A DNA stretch of 41,293 bases, taken from the UHGV virus genome UHGV-0213939; one strand, written 5' to 3'. The translations under genes and the position numbers were made by a program. This document shows, one piece after another, positions 17,175 to 41,071 of this stretch; the first letter of the stretch is position 1, and the number at the start of each line of letters is the position of its first letter. The notes beneath the pieces are model-generated. The model did no database searches. It saw only the letters and a list, made by a program, of their open reading frames with translations, and was not told the DNA's origin. Source of the DNA: a virus.

Positions 17175-20855
<3,681 letters not shown>

Positions 20856-20881
<26 letters not shown>

Positions 20882-21401
20882 TCAGCAACCCCAGTATCAG
20901 TTCATCCAGCGCGGCTGCTTTGTTCATGGCTTTGATGATATCCCGTTTCAGGAAATCAACATGTCGGTTTTCCAGTTCCGGAAAACGCCGCTGCACCGAC
21001 AGGGGGATCCCGTCGAGAATACTGGCAATTTCACCTGCGATCCGCGACAACACGAAAGTACAGAATGCGGTTTCCACCACTTCAGCGGAGTCTCTGGCAT
21101 TCTTCAGTTCCTGTGCGTCGGCCTGCGCACGCGTAAGTCGATGGCGTTCGTACTCAATAGTCCCTGGCTGGAGATCTGCCTCGCTGGCCTGCCGCAGTTC
21201 TTCAACCTCCCGGCGCAGCTTTTCGTTCTCAATTTCAGCATCCCTTTCGGCATACCATTTTATGACGGCGGCAGAGTCATAAAGCACCTCATTACCCTTC
21301 CCACCACCTCGCAGAACGGGCATTCCCTGCTCCTGCCAGTTCTGAATGGTACGGATACTCGCACCGAAAATGTCAGCCAGCTGCTTTTTGTTGACTTCCA
21401 T
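20856..21401 (-). CDS. Nu1: Terminase small subunit Nu1
   Basis: 181 aa; N-terminus MEVNKKQLADIFGASIRTIQNWQEQGMP matches lambda Nu1; overlaps the start of A. Confidence 0.9.
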
Positions 21402-21813: not shown

Positions 21814-22881
21814 ATGAGTCAACATCAATATTATCCACAGCTGAAATGGAAGCCTGCTGAATATGAATCTCTGATGCTTTTAGATCAAACTACGCTCTCT
21901 GGTTTTACTCCGATCATTACCATTCCAGACATAGACTGGGATTATGAAAACGAATGCTACAAGAAGAGTTTGAGTTCTTACTTATCTGACTTCGGTATTA
22001 ACCTTGCGGCATCCTGGAAAGCCAATCGTCCTGTTTTGCTGGATGTTAAATATTTAGATAAACATGGTTCGAGCCGCCATCATCCTCTAGATATGTGTAT
22101 CCAAGATGCTAGAGTAAATGGTAAGGAAATTATCCCTGTTGTTTCTCCCGCATATTCAACAAACTATATACATGCTGTTCAACGCAACTTAATCAATGGG
22201 CTCGCTATATCTATCACCCCCCAGACATGGCACCAATTCACAAGTCTGGTTAACCACTTAAATATTCATCCTAGTTTAATTGATGTAATCATTGATTTTG
22301 GAGATATTCAAAACGCAACTGATAGTTTAAAACAACAAGCATTAAGCATGGTCAACACATTATCAGGCCAAGCTCCGTGGAGAAACTTGATTTTATCTTC
22401 AACCGCATACCCGGCATCACAGGCAGGGATACCGCAACATCAAGTTCATCATATTCCGCGCCATGAATACGATCTTTGGATGTACGTAGTACAGAATTTT
22501 AGCAATGGAAGAACGCCAAGTTTTAGTGATTATCCCACCGCTAGCTCTACCATTACGAGCGTAGACCCACGCTTCATGTCTCAGTATGTCTCAGTGAGAT
22601 ATTCGAACGATACCTCATGGATCTTTGTAAAAGGTACCGCAGTTAAAGGAAATGGATGGGGCCAAACTAAAAACTTATGTACTACCCTTGTTAGTTCGCC
22701 AGAGTATCAAGTCTTTGGCTCCAAATTTAGTTGGGGGGATGATTACATTTACCAAAGATCATTAGGCGCTAACAAATCTGGCGGCTCTAAAGAATGGCGT
22801 AAAGTTGCACATACGCACCATATTACGTTAGTCGTGAGACAGCTTTATTGGTTGGCGCAGACTCAGCCTGCCAAGCCTTAA
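21814..22881 (+). CDS. Hypothetical protein (355 aa), cargo gene A of an AT-rich two-gene cassette; no family recognised
   Basis: Long ORF with a strong RBS (TAAGGAG about 8 nt upstream of the ATG). Visibly AT-richer than the flanking phage genes. No lambda counterpart at this position (lambda has bor here). Confidence 0.7.
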   Translation: MSQHQYYPQLKWKPAEYESLMLLDQTTLSGFTPIITIPDIDWDYENECYKKSLSSYLSDFGINLAASWKANRPVLLDVKYLDKHGSSRHHPLDMCIQDARVNGKEIIPVVSPAYSTNYIHAVQRNLINGLAISITPQTWHQFTSLVNHLNIHPSLIDVIIDFGDIQNATDSLKQQALSMVNTLSGQAPWRNLILSSTAYPASQAGIPQHQVHHIPRHEYDLWMYVVQNFSNGRTPSFSDYPTASSTITSVDPRFMSQYVSVRYSNDTSWIFVKGTAVKGNGWGQTKNLCTTLVSSPEYQVFGSKFSWGDDYIYQRSLGANKSGGSKEWRKVAHTHHITLVVRQLYWLAQTQPAKP

Positions 22882-23443
22882 CTTTCCAGCCTACGCGTTT
22901 CTTTAAGGCTGTTCTGACTTCAAGCCTGAGATTCGCTATTGGAATATTTTCCGCAATAATATTCCATAACTCAAATCGGGGCTTGCTTTTGATTCCTTTG
23001 GAATAGCCCCATCGTTCAAGTACGTCGATACATTCATCTTTCCAAAGCAATTGAGCGAGCATCAATGTGTCATGGTTTCGATTAAGCTTTTCTCCACGCA
23101 TGTGCTTTATAAGAATGGCGCCTTTTGGCCCAACAGAAACCGTTTTAACGCCCCACCAACCTGGGATTAACTTTAATGCTCCCTCAAGGTGTTTCTCAGC
23201 TACGACAAGAGTAACCTTGTCCATTACAGAAGAATAATGCTTGATTTGAAGAGGCAAACGCTCCAAAGAGTCATATTCACTTTTGAGCTCGTACCCGTGT
23301 ATAACACCATTTATTACAGCAATGTCTGCTCTACTGGCGCCAAGGGATATGGAAAATTCATCGACCACAAGGCAGTCTGGATCTAAATGCGATTCTTTCA
23401 AAAGCTTATGATGCACCGCGAACCTAACATCTTGATCTTTCAT
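22823..23443 (-). CDS. Hypothetical protein (206 aa) with a PD-(D/E)xK-like nuclease signature, cargo gene B, convergent with gene A
   Basis: ORF with a strong RBS (AAGGAG). N-terminal region has E29 (VVDEF), D40 (RADIAVI) and E52-L-K54 (GYELK) in the spacing expected for a restriction-endonuclease-like core. The 3' end overlaps gene A by 59 bp. Confidence 0.65.
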   Translation of the reverse strand: MKDQDVRFAVHHKLLKESHLDPDCLVVDEFSISLGASRADIAVINGVIHGYELKSEYDSLERLPLQIKHYSSVMDKVTLVVAEKHLEGALKLIPGWWGVKTVSVGPKGAILIKHMRGEKLNRNHDTLMLAQLLWKDECIDVLERWGYSKGIKSKPRFELWNIIAENIPIANLRLEVRTALKKRVGWKVKAWQAESAPTNKAVSRLT

Positions 23444-23859: not shown

Positions 23860-24318
23860 TTATTTTAAGCACTGCGTCCTGATGTACTCCTGCAGGTAGT
23901 TGACCTGCGCGGTTATCTTGTCGATTCCACTTCGGAGACGGTAATAATTGAGTTCAGCATCTGCTGTAAGTCTTGGGCTTTCTCCATCGCCCATGCTGCT
24001 GGCTCCGGTCGTTGACTTTGCACAGGTGGCGGCGACTTGCAGGCGCTTACGCCCAGCAGAAACATCAGCACGAAGACTTTCGATAGTCGCGTTAGCATCA
24101 GCAAGCTCCTTTGTGTATCTGGCGTCGAGTTCTGCTACATCACGCTGACGCATCTGCATGTCAGTAATTGCCGCGTTCGCCAGCTTCAGTTCTCTGGCAT
24201 TTTTGTCGCGCTGGGCTTTGTAGGTAATGGCGTTATCACGGTAATGATTAACAGCCCATGACAGGCAGACGATGATGCAGATAACCAGAGCGGAGATAAT
24301 CGCGGTGACTCTGCTCAT
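23860..24318 (-). CDS. Rz: Spanin, inner membrane subunit Rz
   Basis: 152 aa; N-terminal TM segment and coiled coil; position after R. Confidence 0.9.
23913..24104 (-). CDS. Rz1: Spanin, outer membrane lipoprotein subunit Rz1 (embedded in Rz in the +1 frame)
   Basis: 63-aa ORF nested inside Rz with lipobox LLGVSAC and a Pro-rich segment ([14 protein letters not shown]), as in lambda Rz1. Confidence 0.75.
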
Positions 24319-24791
24319 ACCTCAATCTCTCTGACCGTTCCGCCCGCTTCTTTGAATTTTGCAATCAGGCTGTCAGCCTTATGCTCGAACTGACCATAAC
24401 CAGCGCCCGGCAGTGAAGCCCAGATATTGCTGCAACGGTCGATTGCCTGACGGATATCACCGCGATCAATCATCGGTAAAGCGCCACGCTCCTTAATCTG
24501 CTGCAATGCCACAGCGTCCTGGCTTTTCGGAGAGAAGTCTTTCAGGCCAAGCTGCTTACGGTAGGCATCCCACCAACGGGAAAGAAGCTGGTAACGTCCG
24601 GCGGCTGTTGATTTGAGTTTGGGGTTTAGCGTGACAAGTTTGCGAGGGTGATCGGAGTAATCAGTGAATAGCTCTCCGCCAACAATGACGTCATAACCAT
24701 GATTTCTGGTTTTCTGTCGTCCGTTATCAGTTCCCTCTGACCACGCCAGCATATCGAGGAACGCCTTACGTTGATTATTGATTTCCACCAT
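24315..24791 (-). CDS. R: Endolysin R (lytic transglycosylase)
   Basis: 158 aa, same as lambda R; position between S and Rz. Confidence 0.9.
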
Positions 24792-25098
24792 CTTCTACTC
24801 CGGCTTTTTTAGCAGCGAAGCGTTTGATAAGCGAACCAATCGAGTCAGTACCGATGTAGCCGATGAACACGCTCGTTATATAAGCGAGATTGCTACTTAG
24901 TCCGGCGAAGTCGAGAAGGTCACGAATGAACCAGGCGATAATGGCGCACATCGTTGCGTCGATTACTGTTTTTGTAAACGCACCGCCATTATATCTGCCG
25001 CGAAGGTACGCCATTGCAAACGCAAGGATTGCCCCGATGCCTTGTTCCTTTGCCGCGAGAATGGCGGCTAACAGGTCATGTTTTTCTGGCATCTTCAT
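24775..25098 (-). CDS. S: Holin S (dual-start MKM motif)
   Basis: 107 aa; [35 protein letters not shown] matches lambda S107/S105. Confidence 0.9.
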
Positions 25099-25340
25099 GT
25101 CTTACCCCCAATAAGGGGATTTGCTCTATTTAATTAGGAATAAGGTCGATTACTGATAGAACAAATCCAGGCTACTGTGTTTAGTAATCAGATTTGTTCG
25201 TGACCGATATGCACGGGCAAAACGGCATGAGGTTGTTAGCGCAGCCTCTTGCCACCCGCTTTCACGAAGGTCATGTGTAGAAGGCCGCAGCGTAACTATC
25301 ACTGATGAATTCAGGATAACCAGTGGCTACGGCTCAGTTA

Positions 25341-25416
25341 TGGTGCTGATTAACGGACTTGAACCGCCACCCATTCGCTTACAAGGCGACTGCTCTACCA
25401 TTGGAGCTAAACCAGC
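25341..25416 (-). tRNA. tRNA gene; anticodon read as UGU (Thr) from a manual cloverleaf fold
   Basis: Minus-strand sequence GCTGGTTTAGCTCCAATGGTAGAGCAGTCGCCTTGTAAGCGAATGGGTGGCGGTTCAAGTCCGTTAATCAGCACCA. 7-bp acceptor stem (one GU), perfect D-stem GCTC/GAGC, T-loop TTCAAGT, anticodon loop CTTGTAA, encoded CCA. Confidence 0.65.
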
Positions 25417-25421
25417 ATGTT

Positions 25422-25496
25422 TGGCGGGACAGCGTGGACTCGAACCACGATAAGAAGGTTAACAGCCTTCCGTAATGACCTTTATACGACTGACCC
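25422..25496 (-). tRNA. tRNA gene; anticodon read as GUU (Asn) from a manual cloverleaf fold
   Basis: Minus-strand sequence GGGTCAGTCGTATAAAGGTCATTACGGAAGGCTGTTAACCTTCTTATCGTGGTTCGAGTCCACGCTGTCCCGCCA. Perfect anticodon stem GAAGG/CCTTC with loop CTGTTAA, perfect T-arm CGTGG-TTCGAGT-CCACG, acceptor stem with one mismatch, encoded CCA. Confidence 0.6.
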
Positions 25497-25506
25497 AAAT
25501 AAAAAA

Positions 25507-25540
25507 AGCCACCGTTGCAACTTAAGAGTCACTAACGGCA
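25507..25540 (-). terminator. Possible tR'-like terminator downstream of Q (weak hairpin followed by a 7-U run on the minus strand)
   Basis: Plus-strand AAAAAAA (25501-25507) followed by CCGTT ... AACGG inverted repeat; lies between the Q stop and the 5' end of the first tRNA. Confidence 0.3.
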
Positions 25541-25559
25541 GCTTACCCTCTAATTATGG

Positions 25560-26078
25560 CTAAATGGCTAATTGCATGTCAAGACTTTTAACAGCAATAT
25601 GCTTAACTTTCTCTACACGTTTACGCATTTTGAAAGCATTTTGCATTGGCTGGTATAAAACAAATAATGACGCTTTCAGGATGTCGTCAATTTCGTTTCT
25701 ACAGGTTGCCAGTGAAGGTTTTCGCCATCCCTCGCCACCACGTCCACACATCTTGCGTGGCTTTGCAGTCGCGTGATAGTAGGATGCAATTGCTCGCTTA
25801 GATGAACCATGAGCGTAGTAGCTGAGGAGGATGCCAAAGGCTTTCTTGTCAATGCACATGACGGAATCGACGACCTGAGAAATCAACATTCCATCATCAT
25901 CATTACACATTGGCCTTGTCATAACTCTTCCCGGCTCTACGCTCTCCATGAACTTCGCTATTACGCTGCTCATGCGCTTTTCCAGACGACCTGAATAAAC
26001 CCATGCTCCCCACAGTTCAAGCCAGCCACTCAGCCACTCGTGCTGCTCTTTGGTGAGGTTTAGTTCTCTTATGCTCAT
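25560..26078 (-). CDS. Q: Late antiterminator Q (phage 82 / 933W-type family)
   Basis: Motifs LELWGAWV ... RPMCNDDDGMLISQ ... LLSYYAHGSS resemble the 933W-type Q protein as I remember it (LERWGAW ... RPQCCDDDAMII ... YY); position between nin genes and the lysis cassette. Confidence 0.7.
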   Translation of the reverse strand: MSIRELNLTKEQHEWLSGWLELWGAWVYSGRLEKRMSSVIAKFMESVEPGRVMTRPMCNDDDGMLISQVVDSVMCIDKKAFGILLSYYAHGSSKRAIASYYHATAKPRKMCGRGGEGWRKPSLATCRNEIDDILKASLFVLYQPMQNAFKMRKRVEKVKHIAVKSLDMQLAI

Positions 26079-26263
26079 CGTCTTCCCCTCTTGCCCTGTT
26101 TGACCATCAGGACGCCGTTAACTATTACGTGACGCTCGCCTTTGCTGTCTCGGTTGTACTTGAGCACTGTTCCTCTTGCGCAGGAAAGCATCCTCGCCAC
26201 TTCGGTCTGATTGCCTCGTGTCTGGATAAGAAGCTCTGGTATCGTTTGAATTGTGGCGTTCAT
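26075..26263 (-). CDS. ninH: NinH
   Basis: 62 aa; ..IPELLIQTRGNQTEVARMLSCARGTVLKYNRDSKGERHVIVNGVLMV.. resembles lambda NinH. Confidence 0.75.
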   Translation of the reverse strand: MNATIQTIPELLIQTRGNQTEVARMLSCARGTVLKYNRDSKGERHVIVNGVLMVKQGKRGRR

Positions 26264-26622
26264 ACGTTCTCCAGTTCGGTGATTTTTATTCCAAGCCTTC
26301 CTCCTGGTACTTTCACACCACGAATTACACGAATGTCGTCGAATTGCTCGTCGTCTTCCGCAAATCCGGCATGGATAAGGGAGTCGAGTAAACCTTTAAG
26401 AATGTTGTCGAGGTCGCGGCGGCGGGAGTCTGGAACGTCTGCGATGACTTTGATGCGGAGTCGTGATTTGGTGAAAATGTCTAACTTGAGTTGGCGGATT
26501 ATTTGCTGTACATCTTTTCGGTATTTCTGGCCTTTATCGCTGATGTAGTATTGGCTTCCCCGTCTTCGCCAGTAGGTATTCACCGACGGCGGGTATGGAA
26601 GCACAAACTGATATTCGTTCAT
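26260..26622 (-). CDS. rusA: Holliday junction resolvase RusA
   Basis: 120 aa; LPYPPSVNTYWRRRG ... DVPDSRRRDLDNILKGLLDSL matches the RusA family pattern. Confidence 0.85.
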   Translation of the reverse strand: MNEYQFVLPYPPSVNTYWRRRGSQYYISDKGQKYRKDVQQIIRQLKLDIFTKSRLRIKVIADVPDSRRRDLDNILKGLLDSLIHAGFAEDDEQFDDIRVIRGVKVPGGRLGIKITELENV

Positions 26623-26909
26623 GACTTAATCTTCCCCTCCTTCAGCAGTATCGCCTGCGTCCTGATCACGCCTTCGAGGTGGTAAAGTCTGGCGTCTTTG
26701 TTGTCGAGGTTATGGGTGCGTCGGTCGATTTCATCGTGACACGCGCTACAAGCCCATGCGCCGATCAGGTCGTCAGGCTTCATTCCCGTTCCGCAAATTC
26801 CAGCCATCCGGTAATGTGCCAGAACTGTAGTTTCAGGATTGCCATTGCATACGCCGTAAATACGTACCTGGCATTCTCTGCCGCGTGCTTCTTTGCGTAG
26901 GTTAGCCAT
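26619..26909 (-). CDS. YbcO-like putative nuclease (DUF1364)
   Basis: 96 aa; ..RKEARGRECQVRIYGVCNGNPETTVLAHYR...CSACHDEIDRRTH.. resembles E. coli DLP12 YbcO. Confidence 0.7.
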   Translation of the reverse strand: MANLRKEARGRECQVRIYGVCNGNPETTVLAHYRMAGICGTGMKPDDLIGAWACSACHDEIDRRTHNLDNKDARLYHLEGVIRTQAILLKEGKIKS

Positions 26910-27178
26910 TATGGTTCACTCCAGTAATTCTCAATTGCAGCAGCCATTCTCTGCATCCACTCAGCCAGCTTTAACGCGGCTTCTCTTTCAGAACCACATT
27001 TAGGGAAATCCTTCATTTCCATGCTGGCCTTATATGTTCTGAATGCCAGGTCTCCGGTAATAATCAGATTCTGATCAAGCACCGAGCGTTTATTCCGGTG
27101 TTGAACGTAATAGACAGATTCAGTCCGCATTTCTTCTCTGTCTTTTTTGAAGGAAATAAGCTCAGAGAAATCACTCAT
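26909..27178 (-). CDS. Hypothetical nin-region protein (89 aa)
   Basis: ORF in an operon-like array with stop/start overlaps to its neighbours; no family recognised. Confidence 0.5.
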   Translation of the reverse strand: MSDFSELISFKKDREEMRTESVYYVQHRNKRSVLDQNLIITGDLAFRTYKASMEMKDFPKCGSEREAALKLAEWMQRMAAAIENYWSEP

Positions 27179-33875: not shown

Positions 33876-34076
33876 ATGACTACGACTATTGATAAAAATC
33901 AATGGTGTGGACAATTCAAACGATGCAATGGATGCAAGCTGCAATCGGAATGCATGGTTAAGCCTGAAGAAATGTTTCCTGTAATGGAAGATGGGAAATA
34001 TGTCGATAAATGGGCAATACGAACGACGGCAATGATTGCCAGAGAACTTGACAAACAGAAAAACAAGGCTGCCTGA
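33876..34076 (+). CDS. ral: Restriction alleviation protein Ral
   Basis: 66 aa; MTTTIDKNQWCGQFKRCNGCKLQSECMVKPEEMFPVMEDGKYVDKWAIRTTAMIARELDKQKNKAA matches lambda Ral from memory. Confidence 0.85.
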   Translation: MTTTIDKNQWCGQFKRCNGCKLQSECMVKPEEMFPVMEDGKYVDKWAIRTTAMIARELDKQKNKAA

Positions 34077-34212
34077 TGGTGGCCTTTATTTTTGGCATAA
34101 ACAACAGAATAAACACTGCACTGTGTATTCATTCCAACGAGTGAATACACGGAGCAATGTCGCTCGTAACTAAACAGGAGCCGACTTGTTCTGATTATTG
34201 GAAATCTTCTTT

Positions 34213-34239
34213 GCCCTCCAATGTGAGGGCGTTTTTTTT
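34213..34239 (+). terminator. Intrinsic terminator in the early-left operon (GCCCTC-loop-GAGGGC followed by T8)
   Basis: Perfect 6-bp GC-rich stem with a 6-nt loop, followed by GTTTTTTTT. Confidence 0.6.
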
Positions 34240-34252
34240 GACGGAGTAAACG

Positions 34253-34501
34253 ATGATAAAAACTGATTACCCTGCAGAGCTTAAACAAAAAGTAATAACA
34301 GCAATTAAATGCTCTTTTATCTCATGTCGTACAGATGAAGAACGATATGTCGTTGAGTGTGCAATTGTCGAGTTTCTCACAGCGATGGAATTTACCGCTG
34401 CAGAATCAATAGATGTATTAAAGCAATCAGACGGAAATGATATTGAAACGGATGATGTTATTGACCGACTAATAAAATCATTCGAAGAAGAAATAGAGTA
34501 G
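34253..34501 (+). CDS. Hypothetical acidic protein (82 aa)
   Basis: ORF immediately after the terminator; strongly acidic C-terminal half (..DGNDIETDDVIDRLIKSFEEEIE); no family recognised. Confidence 0.5.
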   Translation: MIKTDYPAELKQKVITAIKCSFISCRTDEERYVVECAIVEFLTAMEFTAAESIDVLKQSDGNDIETDDVIDRLIKSFEEEIE

Positions 34502-34584
34502 CCGCCTGAGCGCGGCTTTACCGCATACCAATAATGCTTCACGAGAGGCATTTTCGTTATGCAATCAAATATAAGGAGTTACCC

Positions 34585-34719
34585 ATGATGCACTTTCAGC
34601 TCGCGGGTAGCGGCGTCATGTCCGCTTTCTACCCGCACGAATCTGAATTATCACGCCGAGTTAAACAATTAATCAGAGCAGCAAAGAAACAACTGGAGGC
34701 GTTATGCGCAATGAAATAG
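34585..34719 (+). CDS. cIII: CIII-like protein (FtsH inhibitor)
   Basis: Internal start MMHFQLAGSGVMSAFYPHESELSRRVKQLIRA with an AAGGAG RBS; pattern resembles lambda CIII (..AIAGWPVAGCPSESLLERITRKL..). Confidence 0.55.
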   Translation: MMHFQLAGSGVMSAFYPHESELSRRVKQLIRAAKKQLEALCAMK

Positions 34720-34856
34720 CCATTAATCACCAGATGCTTCGTGCTGCACAGAACAAAGCAGTAATAGCCCGATTTATTGGTGATTCAAAAATGTGGCTTG
34801 AAGCAAATAAAGCGATGAAATCAGCTATCAACCTTCCATGGTATCGCAGGAAATGA
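34704..34856 (+). CDS. kil: Kil-like protein (50 aa)
   Basis: Manual translation MRNEIAINHQMLRAAQNKAVIARFIGDSKMWLEANKAMKSAINLPWYRRK; the ..IARFIGDSKMW..A..A.K.. segment resembles lambda Kil. Below the ORF-track size cutoff. Confidence 0.5.
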   Translation: MRNEIAINHQMLRAAQNKAVIARFIGDSKMWLEANKAMKSAINLPWYRRK

Positions 34857-35011
34857 GTTTTACAGATAACTGGTCAGACGAAGAATTCATTCGTCAGATG
34901 AAAGAATTAATCGGTAACGAAGGAGATATGCATGCCACTTGCAACCACAGTGAAGGAGAGCAAGTTACAGAGACGCATGTACACGCAGAAAGCTCTCTGG
35001 TATCGCCATAA
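34853..35011 (+). CDS. Possible small protein (52 aa) between kil and erf
   Basis: ATGA overlap with the kil stop; manual translation MSFTDNWSDEEFIRQMKELIGNEGDMHATCNHSEGEQVTETHVHAESSLVSP. Confidence 0.3.
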   Translation: MSFTDNWSDEEFIRQMKELIGNEGDMHATCNHSEGEQVTETHVHAESSLVSP

Positions 35012-35112
35012 TGGCGACCGCGAAGGAATGCGGGTATGTCTTAATTTGTCCCGAGTCGAAGTATTAAATCAGCGTTATTTCCTTGGGTCATGTCCATTCT
35101 GAGAACAATCAT

Positions 35113-35718
35113 ATGAGCAAAGAATTTTACGCAAGACTGGCAGCTATTCAGGAGAATCTGAACGCGCCAAAGAATCAGTACAACTCATTCGGTAAATATA
35201 AATACAGAAGCTGCGAAGATATTCTTGAAGGCGTTAAGCCGTTACTGAATGGCCTGTTTTTATCAATCAGCGATGAAGTTGTGTTGATTGGTGATCGGTA
35301 TTATGTGAAAGCCACGGCAACTATTACCGATGGCGAAAACAGTCATACGGCAACCGCTCTTGCACGAGAGGAAGAAAGCAAGAAAGGAATGGATTCTGCA
35401 CAAGTTACGGGAGCTACAAGCTCTTATGCACGCAAGTATTGCCTCAATGGTTTGTTCGGCATTGATGATGCGAAAGATGCAGATACCGACGAGCATAAAC
35501 ATCAGCAGAACGCAGCAGCAAAGCAATCAAAACCATCACCTACACCTGAACAGGTTCTAAAAGCATTCACTGACGCAGCAATGCAGAAAAACACCGTAGA
35601 AGAGCTTAAACAGGCGTTCGCCAAAGCGTGGAAGATGCTCGAAGGTACACCGGAGCAGCACAAAGCGCAGGACGTTTACAACATCAGACGAGACGAATTA
35701 GAAGGGGCAACTGCTTAA
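35113..35718 (+). CDS. erf: ERF-family single-strand annealing recombinase
   Basis: MSKEFYARLAAIQENLNAPKNQYNSFGKYKYRSCEDILEGVKPLLNGL.. resembles the P22 Erf N-terminal domain from memory. The ORF track extends the start to 35083. Confidence 0.7.
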   Translation: MSKEFYARLAAIQENLNAPKNQYNSFGKYKYRSCEDILEGVKPLLNGLFLSISDEVVLIGDRYYVKATATITDGENSHTATALAREEESKKGMDSAQVTGATSSYARKYCLNGLFGIDDAKDADTDEHKHQQNAAAKQSKPSPTPEQVLKAFTDAAMQKNTVEELKQAFAKAWKMLEGTPEQHKAQDVYNIRRDELEGATA

Positions 35719-36101
35719 TGGCACACTCGATTACTGTAAGACTAAACAAGCCAGCAAGAGAGTTTCAGGCCGGGGAAAATATCGGATTCAATATCCGTGC
35801 TGGCGTTCAGTATTACGATCGCCAGACAAAAAAGAAAGAATGGACAAACTACAGCGCCGTTGTATTTGCCAAGCCGGGAGCGCAAGCGGATTACTACCGT
35901 AGTATTCTTGTTGAAGGTGGCATTGTAGAAATTACCGGAGAAAACATCAGGGTTGATGTTTATCAGGGGCAAAATGGTCAATCAATCACTCTTGAATTAC
36001 TGAATGCAAAGATTGGATTTGCAACATCAGGAAACTGCCAACAGCAACAAAGTAGCAATCATCAAAATCATCCTGAATACGATGATTCAATTCCCTTCTA
36101 A
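35718..36101 (+). CDS. SSB-like single-stranded DNA-binding protein (OB fold with acidic C-terminal tail)
   Basis: Start MAHSITVRLNK.. overlaps the erf stop (TAATG). C-terminus ..PEYDDSIPF mimics the E. coli SSB tail (..DDDIPF). Confidence 0.6.
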   Translation: MAHSITVRLNKPAREFQAGENIGFNIRAGVQYYDRQTKKKEWTNYSAVVFAKPGAQADYYRSILVEGGIVEITGENIRVDVYQGQNGQSITLELLNAKIGFATSGNCQQQQSSNHQNHPEYDDSIPF

Positions 36102-36124
36102 ATTAGCAATATAAGGATTCCATT

Positions 36125-36418
36125 ATGCCAGCGCCTATGTATGGTGCGGATGACCCGCGCCGCTGTTCCGGCAAATCAGTATCGGAGGTGCTGGATAAAT
36201 TCAGAAAAAACTACGACCTGATAATGTCGCTACCGCAGGAAACGAAAGAGGAAAAGGAATTTCGTCATTGTATATGGCTTGCAGAGAAAGAAGAACGCGA
36301 GCGAATTTACCAGACATCAATCCGACCATTCCGTAAAGCCACATATACCCACTTCCCTGAAATTGACCCACGCCTGCGTAATTACCGCTCACGCTATGGC
36401 GCTATCAGTAATGACTGA
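36125..36418 (+). CDS. Hypothetical protein (97 aa)
   Basis: ORF in the co-directional early-left array; no family recognised. Confidence 0.5.
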
Positions 36419-38884: not shown

Positions 38885-39005
38885 CATGTCACGAATGGAT
38901 TATGCATGATGAATTTGATGGGTTTTGAATACTGCCGCCAACTATGGCGGCTTTATTTTGCATGATACTATTACCAAAACGGTAACTATTACCAAGGTGG
39001 TTATT

Positions 39006-39599
39006 ATGCCAGCTGAACCTAAAACCTATAAACGCAAATCAACGCAATTTAAGCCACTAACAGCAATGCAGGAGGCTTATTGTCAGTCGTACATCAAAAC
39101 GCCTGAAAACCAGACTCAGGCAGCGATTAACGCAGGATTCTCTCCAAATACAGCGGCAGTTAAAGCCAGTGTTATGATGCGCGATGAACGCATTCAGAAA
39201 CGGATTGCCGAGCTGATGGAGGAACGCAACAAACGAATGCGCGTCAGTGCCGATTACGTTCTTATGCGCCTGGTGGAGATCGACCAGATGGACGTGATCG
39301 ACATCCTCAACGACGATGGGAGCCTTAAGCCAATCCGCGAGTGGCCGAAAATATGGCGCACTACGCTTAGCGGCTTTGATCTGTCATCGACCATCATGAA
39401 CATGAACGAGGATTCGATAGAGACAATCCTCAAAAAAATTAAATGGCCTGACAAGGTGAAGAACCTTGAGCTGATTGGTAAGCATGTTGATGTTAACGCG
39501 TTTAAAGAACGCCTGGATGTTAATGTGAATGTGACAATTGCAGATCGCATAGCAGCGGCCAGGAAGCGACTCAAAGAACGCCAGGATGGTAATCAGTGA
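39006..39599 (+). CDS. Terminase small subunit (second, non-lambda type)
   Basis: Start MPAEPKTYKRK.. with RBS; ..MQEAYCQSYIKTPENQTQAAINAGFSPNTA.. is a typical HTH segment of small terminase subunits. The ORF track extends to 38925. Confidence 0.6.
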   Translation: MPAEPKTYKRKSTQFKPLTAMQEAYCQSYIKTPENQTQAAINAGFSPNTAAVKASVMMRDERIQKRIAELMEERNKRMRVSADYVLMRLVEIDQMDVIDILNDDGSLKPIREWPKIWRTTLSGFDLSSTIMNMNEDSIETILKKIKWPDKVKNLELIGKHVDVNAFKERLDVNVNVTIADRIAAARKRLKERQDGNQ

Positions 39600-41071
39600 C
39601 AGATACAGCGTTATCTCCTGAAGAGCAGTTAATCGAGGATATTGCAGGGTTCACTCACGATCCGCTTGGCTATGCCCTCTATGCGTTCCCGTGGGGGGAA
39701 GAGGGGACTGAACTGGCACATGCTACCGGCCCACGTCAGTGGCAGGCTGATGCGTTCCGAGAGATACGTGATCACCTGCAGAATCCAGAGACGCGCTATC
39801 AGCCGCTTATGTTGGCACGCGCTTCTGGTCACGGTATTGGTAAATCCGCATTCATCTCAATGCTGATCAACTGGGGCATGTCCACTTGCGAGGATTGTAA
39901 GGTCGTGGTGACCGCCAACACCGACAACCAGCTACGAACGAAGACCTGGCCGGAAATTATCAAGTGGTCGAACCTTGCTATCACGAAAGACTGGTTTACC
40001 TGTACCGCTACCGCGATGTACAGCAATGACCCTGGGCACGACAAGCGGTGGCGGGCTGACGCAATACCCTGGTCTGAGCACAACACTGAGGCATTCGCCG
40101 GACTACACAACGAGCGCAAACGCATCATCGTGGTATTCGATGAAGCGTCGAACATTGCGGATCTGGTGTGGGAAGTTGCTGAGGGTGCGCTTACGGACGA
40201 AGACACTGAGATTATCTGGGTGGCGTTCGGAAACCCTACACGTAACACCGGGCGTTTTCGCGAATGTTTCCGCAAATATAAACACCGCTGGAAAACTGCG
40301 CAGATTGACAGCCGGACGGTGGAAGGCACTAACAAACAGCAGTTGCAGAAATGGGTTGATGACTACGGGGAAGACAGCGACTTCGTTAAAATCCGTGTGC
40401 GCGGCATATTCCCGGATGCATCTGAATTGCAGTTTATCCCTACCGGCCTTACTGACGAGGCAATGAAACGGGTGGTAACCGCTGCGCAGGTTGCACATGC
40501 TCCGGTGATAATCGGCGTTGACCCGGCATACTCCGGCGTTGATGACGCTGTGATATACCTGCGGCAGGGGCTGCACAGTAAGGTGCTGTGGACTGGCAAC
40601 AAGACCACTGACGATCTGATTATGGCGAAGCGTATCGCTGACTTTGAAGACCAGTACCAGGCTGACGCAGTGTTCATCGACTTCGGTTACGGAACTGGTC
40701 TGAAGTCAATCGGTGATGGCTGGGGTCGTACATGGCAACTTGTTCCGTTCGGTGGCGCGTCTACTGACCCGCAGATGCTCAACAAGCGTGGGGAGATGTT
40801 CAACTCATGCAAGACATGGCTGAGGCTGGGCGGCATGCTGGATGACCAGGAAACAGCGGACGACCTGTCTGCGGCAGAGTACAAAGTTCGAGTGGACGGT
40901 AAAATCGTTATCGAACCGAAGGAAGATATCAAGGAGCGGCTTGGGCGTTCTCCTGGTAAAGGCGATGCGCTACTGCTGACGTTTGCGTTCCCTGTGTCGA
41001 AGCGCCTGCGAATTCCTGGGCTGCAGAACCAGCAGGGCAGGGCAATCATGGATTACGACCCGTTTGCTTAA
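39596..41071 (+). CDS. Terminase large subunit (second, non-lambda type)
   Basis: 491 aa; Walker A-like ARASGHGIGKS, Walker B IIVVFDEAS, C-terminal nuclease-like domain (VIIGVDPAYSG). GTG start overlaps the TerS stop. Confidence 0.8.
   Translation: MTDTALSPEEQLIEDIAGFTHDPLGYALYAFPWGEEGTELAHATGPRQWQADAFREIRDHLQNPETRYQPLMLARASGHGIGKSAFISMLINWGMSTCEDCKVVVTANTDNQLRTKTWPEIIKWSNLAITKDWFTCTATAMYSNDPGHDKRWRADAIPWSEHNTEAFAGLHNERKRIIVVFDEASNIADLVWEVAEGALTDEDTEIIWVAFGNPTRNTGRFRECFRKYKHRWKTAQIDSRTVEGTNKQQLQKWVDDYGEDSDFVKIRVRGIFPDASELQFIPTGLTDEAMKRVVTAAQVAHAPVIIGVDPAYSGVDDAVIYLRQGLHSKVLWTGNKTTDDLIMAKRIADFEDQYQADAVFIDFGYGTGLKSIGDGWGRTWQLVPFGGASTDPQMLNKRGEMFNSCKTWLRLGGMLDDQETADDLSAAEYKVRVDGKIVIEPKEDIKERLGRSPGKGDALLLTFAFPVSKRLRIPGLQNQQGRAIMDYDPFA

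What the first reader, a model, noticed from the sequence alone, without database searches (positions are those of the whole stretch)
25098..25560. tRNA genes between Q and the lysis cassette: Stx-phage-like architecture with an empty cargo slot
Seen in sequence: two adjacent minus-strand tRNA genes (25341-25416 and 25422-25496), both with encoded CCA ends and good cloverleaf pairing, lie just downstream of an 82/933W-type Q gene and a weak hairpin plus U-run. About 240 bp of non-coding DNA separates them from holin S. Established knowledge: in Shiga-toxin-converting lambdoid phages the Q-tRNA-toxin-lysis arrangement places cargo under Q-dependent late transcription. Inference: this phage has the same late-regulated platform, carrying tRNAs but no toxin here. 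My anticodon readings (UGU and GUU) are from manual folding and should be verified.
Basis: partly seen in the sequence, partly recalled or inferred. Interest (0 to 1): 0.35.

Follow-up and report, generated by a model that had tools for sequence, protein, structure and literature searches.

The report
Phage 21-type late-operon tRNA-Asn/tRNA-Thr cassette
The two tRNA genes are real, but they are the well-known Asn/Thr tRNA pair that phage 21, Shigella phage Sf6 and many E. coli and Salmonella prophages carry just after the late-gene terminator; published 2025 work indicates the Thr tRNA replaces a host tRNA destroyed by an anti-phage nuclease, and there is no sign of an emptied toxin slot.

Summary
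ARAGORN and Rfam call tRNA-Thr(UGU) at 25341-25416 and tRNA-Asn(GUU) at 25422-25496 on the minus strand, both with an encoded CCA end.

Two details in the finding are wrong:
- The upstream Q is Q21-type (E 1e-89 to the PDB Q21 chains). It shares only 32% identity over 79 residues with 933W Q.
- The terminator is strong (-20.2 kcal/mol, z -4.2), not weak.

The whole Q-pR'-tR'-Asn-Thr unit is already annotated in phage 21 and Sf6, is 97-98% identical to Sf6, and occurs in 369 of 5,426 complete E. coli genomes.

The 242 bp before holin S is not an empty slot. It is the S leader, 96% identical to lambda's, and the holin follows at a fixed distance in about 94 of 98 related contigs.

The Stx link is real but reversed. 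Q21-type Stx2/Stx2c phages keep a 24-nt stub of this tRNA-Asn, which shows the stx cassette displaced the pair.

Most likely function: nuclease-resistant replacement tRNAs. The anticodon arm of the Thr tRNA is identical to that of tRNA-Thr21, which was shown in 2025 to resist P2 Old and rescue cells from it. Both phage tRNAs lack the Old (CNG) and PARIS AriB (U39/41) determinants that their host counterparts carry. The Asn role is untested, and this phage carries Abc2, which does not trigger Old.

Verdict: already known, low interest.

The parts
25560..26078 (-). Late antiterminator Q, Q21 family (Sf6/L subtype)
   Evidence: PDB Q21 chains 6jnx/6p18 at E 1e-89. Pfam PF06530 at E 1.5e-25. Only 32% identity over 79 aa to 933W Q. 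The 3' end of Q plus the control region (25497-25760) is 97.7% identical to Sf6 DNA and about 75% identical to authentic phage 21.
25553..25582 (-). Late promoter pR': -35 TTGACA at 25582-25577 and -10 CATAAT at 25558-25553. The tandem 8-mers AATTAGCC/ATTTAGCC (25573-25558) lie between them and are the likely Q-binding element. The inferred transcription start is near 25546.
   Evidence: Promoter scan, 11 of 12 matches. Aligns with the annotated -35, QBE, -10 and TSS of phage 21. The phage L paper describes AATTATCC/AtTTAgCC as the likely QBE of this Q subtype (PMC8022706). The TSS is inferred from the alignment only.
25497..25544 (-). Intrinsic terminator tR' (hairpin 25544-25506, then a U-run), the target of Q antitermination
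   Evidence: Folds at -20.2 kcal/mol, z -4.2. The hairpin is identical to the annotated tR' of phage 21, Sf6 and Stx2c phage 2851.
25422..25496 (-). tRNA-Asn(GUU), 75 nt, CCA encoded, discriminator G73, one U4-U mismatch in the acceptor stem
   Evidence: ARAGORN. Rfam 55.3 bits. Identical to the phage 21 and phage L copies. 76 of about 117 viral contigs are identical. Only 44 of 76 positions match host asnT, and the anticodon stem lacks both CNG motifs and U39.
25341..25416 (-). tRNA-Thr(UGU), 76 nt, CCA encoded, G1-C72 and C2-G71
   Evidence: ARAGORN. Rfam 58.1 bits. It differs from phage 21's tRNA-Thr21 at 2 positions outside the anticodon arm (G49 and U68, both giving G-U pairs). The anticodon stem GUCGC/GCGAA is found in 118 of 120 viral contigs, and the acceptor stem shows compensatory variants. 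53 of 77 positions match host thrU.
25099..25340 (-). Conserved, structured 242-nt leader of the lysis cassette (not an empty slot)
   Evidence: 96% identical to lambda 44945-45186. 98% mean identity over 40 phages. MFE -81.8 kcal/mol, z -5.2. No compensatory pair changes were found, so the structure is unproven. The internal 50-aa ORF shows no third-position bias. The first 62 nt are shared with phage 21 and with all holin contexts.
24775..25098 (-). Lambda-type holin/antiholin S (dual start MKM)
   Evidence: Pfam PF05106 at E 2e-30. Homology to lambda and Sf6.
23860..24791 (-). Rest of the lysis cassette: R (24315-24791), Rz (23860-24318) and embedded Rz1 (23913-24104)
   Evidence: ORFs. Pfam Phage_lysis for Rz. 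About 96% DNA identity to lambda and Sf6.

Best explanation
This is the phage 21/Sf6-type late-operon tRNA cassette. Two functional elongator tRNA genes, Asn(GUU) and Thr(UGU), are the first genes of the late transcript and abut the terminator tR'.

Expression (inferred from the layout): pR' fires constitutively. Without Q, transcription stops at tR' after about 50 nt. Once Q21-type Q modifies RNA polymerase, it reads through tR'. The two tRNAs are then presumably cut out of the late RNA by the host tRNA-processing enzymes (RNase P at the 5' ends, 3' trimming back to the encoded CCA). The rest of the transcript carries the S leader, the lysis genes and the lambda-type virion genes.

Function: the tRNAs most likely serve as nuclease-resistant replacements for host tRNAs that Toprim-type anti-phage nucleases destroy.
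- Published for the Thr tRNA of phage 21: P2 Old kills by cutting host tRNA-Thr(UGU) at paired CNG motifs in the anticodon stem, and tRNA-Thr21 resists the cut and rescues cells.
- Shown here: the window's tRNA-Thr has the same anticodon arm as tRNA-Thr21.
- Inferred: tRNA-Asn does the same job for host tRNA-Asn(GUU), which is a slower Old substrate and one of the three main targets of PARIS AriB.
- A modest top-up of ACA decoding may be a secondary benefit.
For: Gene reality and selection:
- (tRNA predictions and Rfam scores).
- The anticodon stem is invariant in 118 of 120 contigs, while the acceptor stem changes by compensatory pairs.
- tRNA-Asn is conserved in the same way.

Placement and control:
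- pR' is the only strong promoter nearby.
- tR' is strong.
- tRNA-Asn starts 4 nt after the U-run.
- The layout is colinear with the annotated phage 21 and Sf6 records.

Counter-defence role:
- PMC12445682: P2-OLD preferentially cleaves host tRNA-ThrU after C28 and C40 of paired CNG motifs. tRNA-Thr21 protects cells and resists cleavage, owing to C28U/G42A and a shortened stem.
- The window's arm is G27-U28-C29-G30-C31 / G39-C40-G41-A42-A43 with a G27-A43 mismatch, identical to phage 21's.
- Host asnT also carries both CNG motifs (CGG and CCG). The phage tRNA-Asn has AAG and CUU instead.
[quoted passage not shown] In tRNA-Lys, U39A abolishes cleavage and A41C inhibits it.
- Both window tRNAs are changed at positions 39 and 41 (UAAGCG and UAACCU, versus host UAAUCA and UAAUCC).

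Against pure codon supply:
- The late region is 95.6% identical to that of lambda, which has no tRNAs.
- The phage tRNAs are only 69% and 58% identical to the host isoacceptors, yet keep the same 7-nt anticodon loops.
Against: - No expression or processing data exist for this cassette. The phage L paper says it is not known how these tRNAs are expressed.
- This phage carries Abc2 (36125-36418, PF11043 at E 9e-64) and no Gam. Abc2 co-expressed with P2-OLD was non-toxic, so P2 Old may not be triggered by this phage at all.
- Rescue by tRNA-Thr alone was only partial in the paper, giving small colonies.
- PARIS escape also needs a resistant tRNA-Lys, which the cassette lacks.
- tRNA-Asn keeps a full 5-bp anticodon stem. 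In the ThrU background, altering the CNG motif without shortening the stem did not protect.
- Late, Q-dependent timing means Q itself (1 ACA codon and 4 Asn codons) must be translated before the tRNAs are made.
- ACA is somewhat enriched: 11.1 per 1000 in the late genes, versus 8.2 in lambda's late genes and 7.1 quoted for Shigella in PMC3636060. Codon supply therefore cannot be excluded as a contributor.
Confidence: 0.6

Rival explanations
1. Codon supplementation: the tRNAs boost decoding of ACA (and ACG/ACU) Thr codons and AAC/AAU Asn codons during the burst of late protein synthesis. This is the classical explanation given in the Sf6, SfI and phage L genome papers.
For: ACA is 11.1 per 1000 in the late genes and 12.7 in the early genes here. 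That compares with 7.1 quoted for a Shigella host and 17.3 for phage SfI (PMC3636060). thrU is the only UGU tRNA in E. coli (PMC12445682). The phage L paper notes that 24 of 25 Asn codons in its coat gene are AAC.
Against: Lambda makes 95.6%-identical late genes with no phage tRNAs. AAC is only 55% of Asn codons here, and the SfI authors found no Asn bias. The major capsid gene has just 2 ACA codons. Supply alone does not explain why both tRNAs differ from the host copies exactly at the nuclease determinants while keeping the anticodon loops.
Confidence: 0.2
2. One reading: a Stx-phage-type Q-tRNA-cargo-lysis platform whose cargo gene has been lost, leaving about 240 bp of vacated non-coding DNA.
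For: The gene order is analogous to 933W and 2851. Q21-type Stx2/Stx2c phages share Q, pR', tR' and 24 nt of tRNA-Asn with this module. One of about 98 related contigs (L111) does have a gene between tRNA-Thr and the holin.
Against: The 242 bp is lambda's own S leader (96% identical), 98% conserved across 40 phages, with no remnant of any gene. The holin follows at a fixed distance in about 94 of 98 contigs. There is no homology to the 933W Q-S interval. In Stx phages the break lies inside tRNA-Asn, upstream of this leader.
Confidence: 0.05
3. RNA-processing element: the tRNAs mainly act as RNase P/RNase E cleavage signals. They would detach the terminator-containing leader and set the 5' end, and so the stability, of the lysis and late mRNA.
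For: Only positional evidence: the tRNAs lie between tR' and a highly structured leader. Lambda and HK75 carry other structured DNA at the same position.
Against: No direct evidence. It would not explain conservation of the anticodons, the synthetase identity elements or the nuclease-evading stems, nor the published rescue by tRNA-Thr21 expressed from a plasmid.
Confidence: 0.05
4. Decaying relics or pseudo-tRNAs carried along by mosaic recombination, with no function.
For: The window's tRNA-Thr has two G-U wobble substitutions relative to the consensus. tRNA-Asn has a U-U mismatch in the acceptor stem. Phage L's second tRNA does appear degenerate.
Against: High covariance-model scores. The synthetase identity elements are intact. 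Acceptor-stem changes are compensatory, and the anticodon arms are nearly invariant across 120 contigs. The pair is present in 369 E. coli genomes at 95% identity or more. The near-identical tRNA-Thr21 is functional.
Confidence: 0.03

Closest known systems
Phage 21 late regulatory region (Q21, pR', QBE, tR', tRNA-Asn, tRNA-Thr; GenBank OL657228; tR' cited there to PMID 1704887)
   Same: Identical order and spacing: tRNA-Asn directly after the tR' U-run, then a 5-nt gap, then tRNA-Thr. The tR' hairpin and tRNA-Asn are identical. tRNA-Thr differs at 2 of 76 positions. The first ~60 nt after tRNA-Thr are shared.
   Different: Q's C-terminal part and the QBE differ (AATTAGCC/ATTTAGCC here, ATTGAGCA/AATGAGCA in phage 21). 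The 3' end of Q plus the control region is about 75% identical, and the whole Q-to-trailer block is 88% identical. Phage 21 has the S21 pinholin 119 bp after tRNA-Thr. This phage has lambda S after a 242-bp leader.
Shigella phage Sf6 (AF547987) genes 59-64 and their P22-like and lambda-like relatives (HF4s, BTP1, SPN9CC, HK446, Kapi1, mEp506)
   Same: 97-98% DNA identity across Q-pR'-tR'-Asn-Thr-leader-S. The Sf6 record annotates the promoter, qut, tR' and both tRNAs as 'similar to phage 21'.
   Different: Sf6 is a P22-like podovirus. This window has a lambda-type virion module, 95.6% identical to lambda. It is a different mosaic carrying the same cassette.
Stx2 phage 933W and Q21-type Stx2/Stx2c phages (2851, 1717, Nil2): Q-tR'-tRNAs-stx-lysis
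   Same: tRNAs and cargo lie downstream of pR'/tR' and upstream of the lysis genes. The Q21-type Stx phages share Q21, pR', tR' and the first 24 nt of tRNA-Asn.
   Different: The tRNAs differ: ileZ-argN-argO, which ARAGORN reads as CAT, TCG and TCT anticodons. A putative tRNA promoter of their own is annotated. stx2AB and several other genes precede a different holin. 933W Q is only 32% identical. There is no DNA homology with 933W in this interval.
Nuclease-resistant phage tRNAs: tRNA-Thr21 and tRNA-Thr6 against P2 Old (PMC12445682); T5 tRNA-Lys, Thr and Asn against PARIS AriB (PMC12409363)
   Same: Same anticodons as the targeted host tRNAs. The substitutions fall at the cleavage determinants (28-30, 39-42), and tRNA-Thr has a shortened stem. 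The anticodon arm is identical to that of tRNA-Thr21.
   Different: T5 carries a large early-expressed tRNA set that includes tRNA-Lys. Here there are only two tRNAs, in a temperate phage, under late Q control. Resistance of this tRNA-Asn is untested. This phage has Abc2, not the Old trigger Gam.

Membership tests
Canonical bacterial elongator tRNA (Rfam RF00005) | Cloverleaf that scores above the family's gathering threshold | tested here: met
   58.1 and 55.3 bits against a threshold of 29. ARAGORN calls both.
Canonical bacterial elongator tRNA (Rfam RF00005) | Structure kept by compensatory change among homologues | tested here: met
   tRNA-Thr acceptor stem variants GCUGGUU/AACCAGC, GCCGGCU/AGCCGGC and GCCAGCU/AGCUGGC across 120 contigs. 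tRNA-Asn varies too little to test.
Canonical bacterial elongator tRNA (Rfam RF00005) | Synthetase identity elements. For ThrRS: G1-C72, C2-G71, G35, U36. For AsnRS: G34, U35, U36, G73. These elements are recalled from memory of the E. coli identity literature. | tested here: met
   All are present in the sequences. Actual charging cannot be tested here.
Phage 21/Sf6-type late-operon tRNA cassette | tRNA-Asn(GUU), a 5-nt gap, then tRNA-Thr(UGU), starting directly after the tR' U-run downstream of pR' | tested here: met
   The same upstream junction (...TTTTTTATTT|GGGTCAG) occurs in about 95 of 117 contigs.
Phage 21/Sf6-type late-operon tRNA cassette | High sequence identity to the reference tRNAs | tested here: met
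   tRNA-Asn is identical to phage 21's. tRNA-Thr matches at 74 of 76 positions. The interval is 97-98% identical to Sf6.
Q21 family of antiterminators (PF06530; structures 6jnx and 6p18) | Sequence homology to Q21 over its full length | tested here: met
   E 1e-89 over residues 1-162. Pfam E 1.5e-25.
Q21 family of antiterminators (PF06530; structures 6jnx and 6p18) | Tandem 8-bp Q-binding element between the -35 and -10 of pR' | tested here: inconclusive
   AATTAGCC/ATTTAGCC occupies the same position as the QBE of phage 21 but has a different sequence. Binding is not testable here.
933W-type Stx-phage Q-tRNA-stx-lysis module | 933W/82-type Q protein | tested here: not met
   32% identity over 79 aa to 933W Q. 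The protein is Q21-type.
933W-type Stx-phage Q-tRNA-stx-lysis module | ileZ-argN-argO tRNAs and stx genes, or remnants of them, between tR' and the holin | tested here: not met
   Only Asn and Thr tRNAs are present. There is no homology to the 933W interval. The leader is lambda's.
933W-type Stx-phage Q-tRNA-stx-lysis module | Genes placed downstream of pR'/tR', so that expression needs Q | tested here: met
   Positional evidence only. Dependence on Q is inferred, not measured.
Nuclease-resistant replacement tRNAs (anti-Old / anti-PARIS) | Same anticodon as a host tRNA that the nuclease targets | tested here: met
   UGU is the primary P2 Old target and a prime AriB target. GUU is a slower Old substrate and a secondary AriB target.
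Nuclease-resistant replacement tRNAs (anti-Old / anti-PARIS) | Cleavage determinants altered relative to the host tRNA (CNG at 28-30 and 40-42; U39 and position 41; stem length) | tested here: met
   Thr has UCG/CGA plus a G27-A43 mismatch, with U39G and A41G. Asn has AAG/CUU with U39C and C41U, but its stem is still 5 bp.
Nuclease-resistant replacement tRNAs (anti-Old / anti-PARIS) | Demonstrated resistance to cleavage and rescue of infection or viability | not testable with these tools
   Published for tRNA-Thr21, which has the same anticodon arm and differs at 2 nt elsewhere (PMC12445682). Not published for this tRNA-Asn, as far as my searches found.

The most novel reading that the evidence does not exclude
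The Asn(GUU)+Thr(UGU) pair is a dedicated two-tRNA kit against Toprim-family tRNA nucleases (P2 Old-like and PARIS AriB-like). Both members, not only tRNA-Thr, would have evolved cleavage-resistant anticodon stems. The pairing would reflect the shared target list of these nucleases. Q-dependent expression would rescue late protein synthesis after the host tRNAs are cut. As a corollary, Q21-type Stx2/Stx2c phages lost this protection when the IS285-like/ileZ-argN-argO/stx cassette broke tRNA-Asn at nt 24.
Probability: 0.4. Interest if true: 0.45.

Novelty: already known. Interest (0 to 1): 0.2.

Why it matters
It matters little as a discovery. The genes, their position and their late-operon context are annotated in phage 21, Sf6 and hundreds of RefSeq E. 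coli genomes, and the Thr tRNA's anti-Old role was published in 2025.

Three points still have some value:
1. The record is corrected: the Q is Q21-type, the terminator is strong, and the 242 bp is the conserved S leader rather than a vacated cargo site.
2. The companion tRNA-Asn also lacks the Old and AriB determinants that host tRNA-Asn carries. That makes a cheap, testable prediction that the pair works as a unit.
3. Clinically relevant Q21-type Stx2/Stx2c phages retain a 24-nt stub of this tRNA-Asn. This dates the stx insertion relative to the cassette and predicts that those phages are more sensitive to Old- or PARIS-type defences than their phage 21-like ancestors.

Tried and rejected
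- **Homology to 933W.** I looked for homology between the Q-S interval and 933W and found none apart from Rz.
- **Other RNA families.** A permissive Rfam scan of 24000-27000 found only the two tRNAs plus a chance snoRNA hit.
- **Coding potential of the leader.** The 50-aa ORF (25150-25302) is intact in 37 of 38 variants, but its variable sites fall 14:8:13 by codon position, so it is not coding-like.
- **Covariation in the leader.** There were 0 compensatory pairs because the sequences are 98% identical. The result is uninformative, so the structure remains a prediction.
- **HK75's replacement segment.** ARAGORN finds no tRNA there. Rfam gives only a sub-threshold tmRNA-like T-arm and acceptor fragment at 20 bits.
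- **Filled slots.** One case in about 98 contigs (L111) has a gene in the slot, and the first 110 aa of that 207-aa protein gave no Pfam match.
- **The 1991 phage 21 paper (PMID 1704887).** It is not held in the library, so the attribution rests on the GenBank notes.
- **First PARIS search.** The terms were too generic and returned only mitochondrial-genome papers. One further search call failed because a term was too short.
- **Integration-site role.** I considered and rejected an attP or integration-site role for the tRNAs. They are complete genes inside the late operon, not next to an integrase.
- **Not attempted.** A cross-tabulation of cassette presence against gam or abc2 in complete phage genomes, because the tools list at most 60 records per search.
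Full report
**1. Observation**

ARAGORN finds exactly two tRNA genes in the window. They are tRNA-Thr (anticodon TGT) at 25341-25416 and tRNA-Asn (anticodon GTT) at 25422-25496, both on the minus strand. The Rfam tRNA model scores them at 58.1 and 55.3 bits against a gathering score of 29. Both encode the CCA end, and 5 nt separate them.

Reading the minus strand, the order is: ninH, Q (26078-25560), a sigma-70 promoter (TTGACA-18-CATAAT, 25582-25553, 11 of 12 matches), a hairpin with a U-run, tRNA-Asn, tRNA-Thr, the 242-bp spacer, then lambda-type S, R, Rz and Rz1.

**2. Two corrections**

- **Q type.** The Q protein is not 82/933W-type. It matches the Q21 chains of PDB 6jnx and 6p18 at E 1e-89. 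It aligns with 933W Q at only 32% identity over 79 residues.
- **Terminator strength.** The hairpin is not weak. The full stem-loop (25544-25506) folds at -20.2 kcal/mol, against -10.1 +/- 2.4 for shuffled sequence (z -4.2). It is identical to the annotated tR' of phage 21.

**3. Already described**

- The interval is 97-98% identical to Shigella phage Sf6 and to many P22-like and lambda-like phages.
- The Sf6 GenBank record annotates the promoter, qut, tR', tRNA-Asn and tRNA-Thr, each noted as similar to phage 21.
- The complete phage 21 record annotates -35, QBE, -10, TSS, SDPE and tR' (citing PMID 1704887), then tRNA-Asn directly after the terminator and tRNA-Thr 5 nt later.
- tRNA-Asn is identical to phage 21's. 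tRNA-Thr differs at two positions (G49 and U68), and both changes give G-U pairs.
- Genome papers on phage L, epsilon34 and SfI mention tRNAs at this position in Sf6, ST64T, PS3, phage 21 and some Salmonella prophages.
- The pair occurs in 369 of 5,426 complete E. coli genomes, and PGAP names both genes.
- Within the Q21 family, this Q and its promoter belong to the Sf6/L subtype. The tandem 8-mers AATTAGCC/ATTTAGCC lie where phage 21 has ATTGAGCA/AATGAGCA. The control region is about 75% identical to authentic phage 21.

**4. The cassette is a discrete mosaic unit, and the 242 bp is not an empty slot**

- HK75 has the same Q21/pR'/tR' and the same S leader. It replaces exactly window 25340-25495 with 204 bp of other DNA that contains no tRNA.
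- Lambda homology (96%) begins at 25339, directly after tRNA-Thr, and runs through S, R and Rz. The 242 bp is therefore lambda's own S leader (lambda 44945-45186).
- HK446 has lambda-type Q and tR', followed by the same tRNA pair.
The pair follows Sf6-type Q21, authentic Q21 or lambda Q.
- In those contigs the first gene after tRNA-Thr is a holin at a fixed distance in about 94 of 98 informative cases: about 117, 179 or 240-245 bp according to holin type. Only one contig (L111) has an inserted gene.
- The leader is 98% conserved over 40 phages including lambda. It folds far better than shuffles (-81.8 kcal/mol, z -5.2). Its small ORF is not coding-like. Variation is too low to prove the structure by covariation.

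**5. The relationship to Stx phages**

- 933W shares no DNA with this interval. Its Q, tRNAs and holin all differ.
- The Q21-type Stx2/Stx2c phages share Q21, pR' and tR' with phage 21 (98% identical for phage 2851).
- Their homology to phage 21 and to the window ends 24 nt inside tRNA-Asn (GGGTCAaTCGTATAAAGGTCATTA). After that come an insert annotated in Nil2 as IS285-like, then the 933W-type ileZ-argN-argO and stx2.
- All 18 such phage records share this junction.
- So the stx cassette displaced the Asn/Thr pair in a phage 21-like late region. The present phage has the intact ancestral arrangement and has not lost a toxin.

**6. How it probably works**

*Expression (inferred from anatomy).* pR' is the only strong promoter nearby, and tRNA-Asn starts 4 nt after the terminator's U-run. 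The tRNAs can therefore be made only by read-through of tR', which means after Q acts. They would then be released from the late transcript by normal tRNA processing.

*The genes are under selection.* The anticodon stem of tRNA-Thr is the same in 118 of 120 contigs, while its acceptor stem changes through compensatory pairs. tRNA-Asn is similarly conserved.

*They are not recent host copies.* Identity is 53 of 77 positions to thrU and 44 of 76 to asnT, yet the 7-nt anticodon loops are identical.

*Two 2025 papers give the most likely function.*
- P2 Old kills during P2-lambda interference by cutting host tRNA-Thr(UGU) after C28 and C40 of paired CNG motifs. Phage 21's tRNA-Thr was tested directly. 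It resists cleavage and rescues cells, owing to C28U/G42A and a shortened stem (PMC12445682).
[quoted passage not shown] It cuts at 40|41 next to U36-A-A-U39. In tRNA-Lys, U39A abolishes cleavage and A41C inhibits it (PMC12409363).

*What the window shows.*
- The window's tRNA-Thr has exactly the anticodon arm of tRNA-Thr21.
- Host asnT carries both CNG motifs and UAAUC|C.
- The phage tRNA-Asn has AAG/CUU and UAACC|U instead.
- Both phage tRNAs therefore lack the determinants of both nucleases.

I conclude that the cassette most likely supplies nuclease-resistant replacement tRNAs. This is shown for the Thr member by published work on a near-identical molecule. It is only inferred for the Asn member.

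**7. Caveats and rivals**

- This phage encodes Abc2, not Gam. Abc2 did not activate P2 Old in the published system. Old may therefore not be the relevant pressure in this genome, and the cassette may simply travel with the Q21 module.
- Rescue by tRNA-Thr alone is partial, and PARIS escape also needs a resistant tRNA-Lys.
- tRNA-Asn keeps a 5-bp stem. In the ThrU background, altering the CNG motif alone did not protect.
- **Codon supply** remains a possible secondary role. ACA is 11.1 per 1000 in the late genes, against 8.2 in lambda's and 7.1 quoted for a Shigella host. However, lambda expresses 95.6%-identical late genes without any phage tRNA, and there is no Asn codon bias.
- **A pure RNA-processing role** and **a relic status** have no support or are contradicted.

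**8. Verdict**

It is wrong on the Q type, on the terminator strength and on the 'empty cargo slot'. The feature is already known and widely annotated.

The only untested elements are the predicted nuclease resistance of the tRNA-Asn partner and the consequences of its truncation in Q21-type Stx phages.

Noticed in passing
window 21814-23443: A two-gene cargo block lies between Rz and Nu1, where lambda has bor. It comprises a 355-aa 'beta family protein' (PF14350; PADLOC PD-Lambda-2_C/beta) on the + strand and a convergent 206-aa 'sce7726 family protein' (PADLOC 'cll'). This is a candidate defence moron. The same 2.3-kb block is at least 80% covered in 126 of 5,426 complete E. coli genomes.
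   Followed up: partly
window 38925-41071: A second terminase pair lies on the + strand: a Terminase_2 small subunit and a 491-aa terminase-large-like ORF. The lambda-type Nu1 and A are already at 20856-21401 and 18956-20881 on the - strand. The right end of the window therefore seems to enter a different element. No integrase was seen between it and the early-left operon.
   Followed up: partly
window 25099-25340 (= lambda 44945-45186): The 242-nt leader of the lysis cassette is unusually stable (-81.8 kcal/mol, z -5.2). It is 98% conserved across 40 phages with different Q types, including lambda. The last ~115 nt are almost invariant. No compensatory changes were available to test the fold.
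   Followed up: partly
L009 6725-6748 (Stx2c phage 2851) and 17 other Stx2/Stx2c phage records: Q21-type Stx phages retain the first 24 nt of the phage 21-type tRNA-Asn directly after tR'. An insert annotated in Nil2 as IS285-like follows, then ileZ-argN-argO and stx2. The stx region evidently replaced the Asn/Thr pair.
   Followed up: yes
L002 1626-1829 (HK75); L004 ~983-1145 (lambda): Phages without the tRNA pair carry alternative 204-bp and 163-bp segments at exactly the same position. The two segments share their first ~25 nt and last ~10 nt. HK75's contains a tRNA/tmRNA-like T-arm plus acceptor 3' fragment (Rfam tmRNA model, 20 bits, below threshold).
   Followed up: partly
7 of 120 viral contigs (one search did not list their locus ids): A three-tRNA version of the cassette exists, with a tRNA-Phe(GAA) between tRNA-Asn and tRNA-Thr. 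In another contig (L025) the same tRNA-Thr lies inside a longer tRNA array in a different kind of phage.
   Followed up: partly
L131 1244-1315 (Salmonella phage L / ST64T): The second tRNA is annotated as tRNA-Leu(UAA), but ARAGORN does not call it. It shares the acceptor stem of tRNA-Thr, has no long variable arm and has C at position 33. It looks like a diverged or decayed derivative of tRNA-Thr rather than a leucine tRNA.
   Followed up: partly
window 33876-36418: The early-left operon carries ral, an 82-aa acidic 'anti-restriction' protein (phrog_14587), cIII, Erf, SSB and Abc2 (anti-RecBCD), but no Gam. This matters for which host defences the phage would trigger.
   Followed up: partly
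L111, +146 to +770 after tRNA-Thr: This is the only surveyed contig with a gene between the tRNA cassette and the holin. The ORF is 207 aa, is preceded by its own terminator-like hairpin, and its first 110 aa gave no Pfam match.
   Followed up: partly
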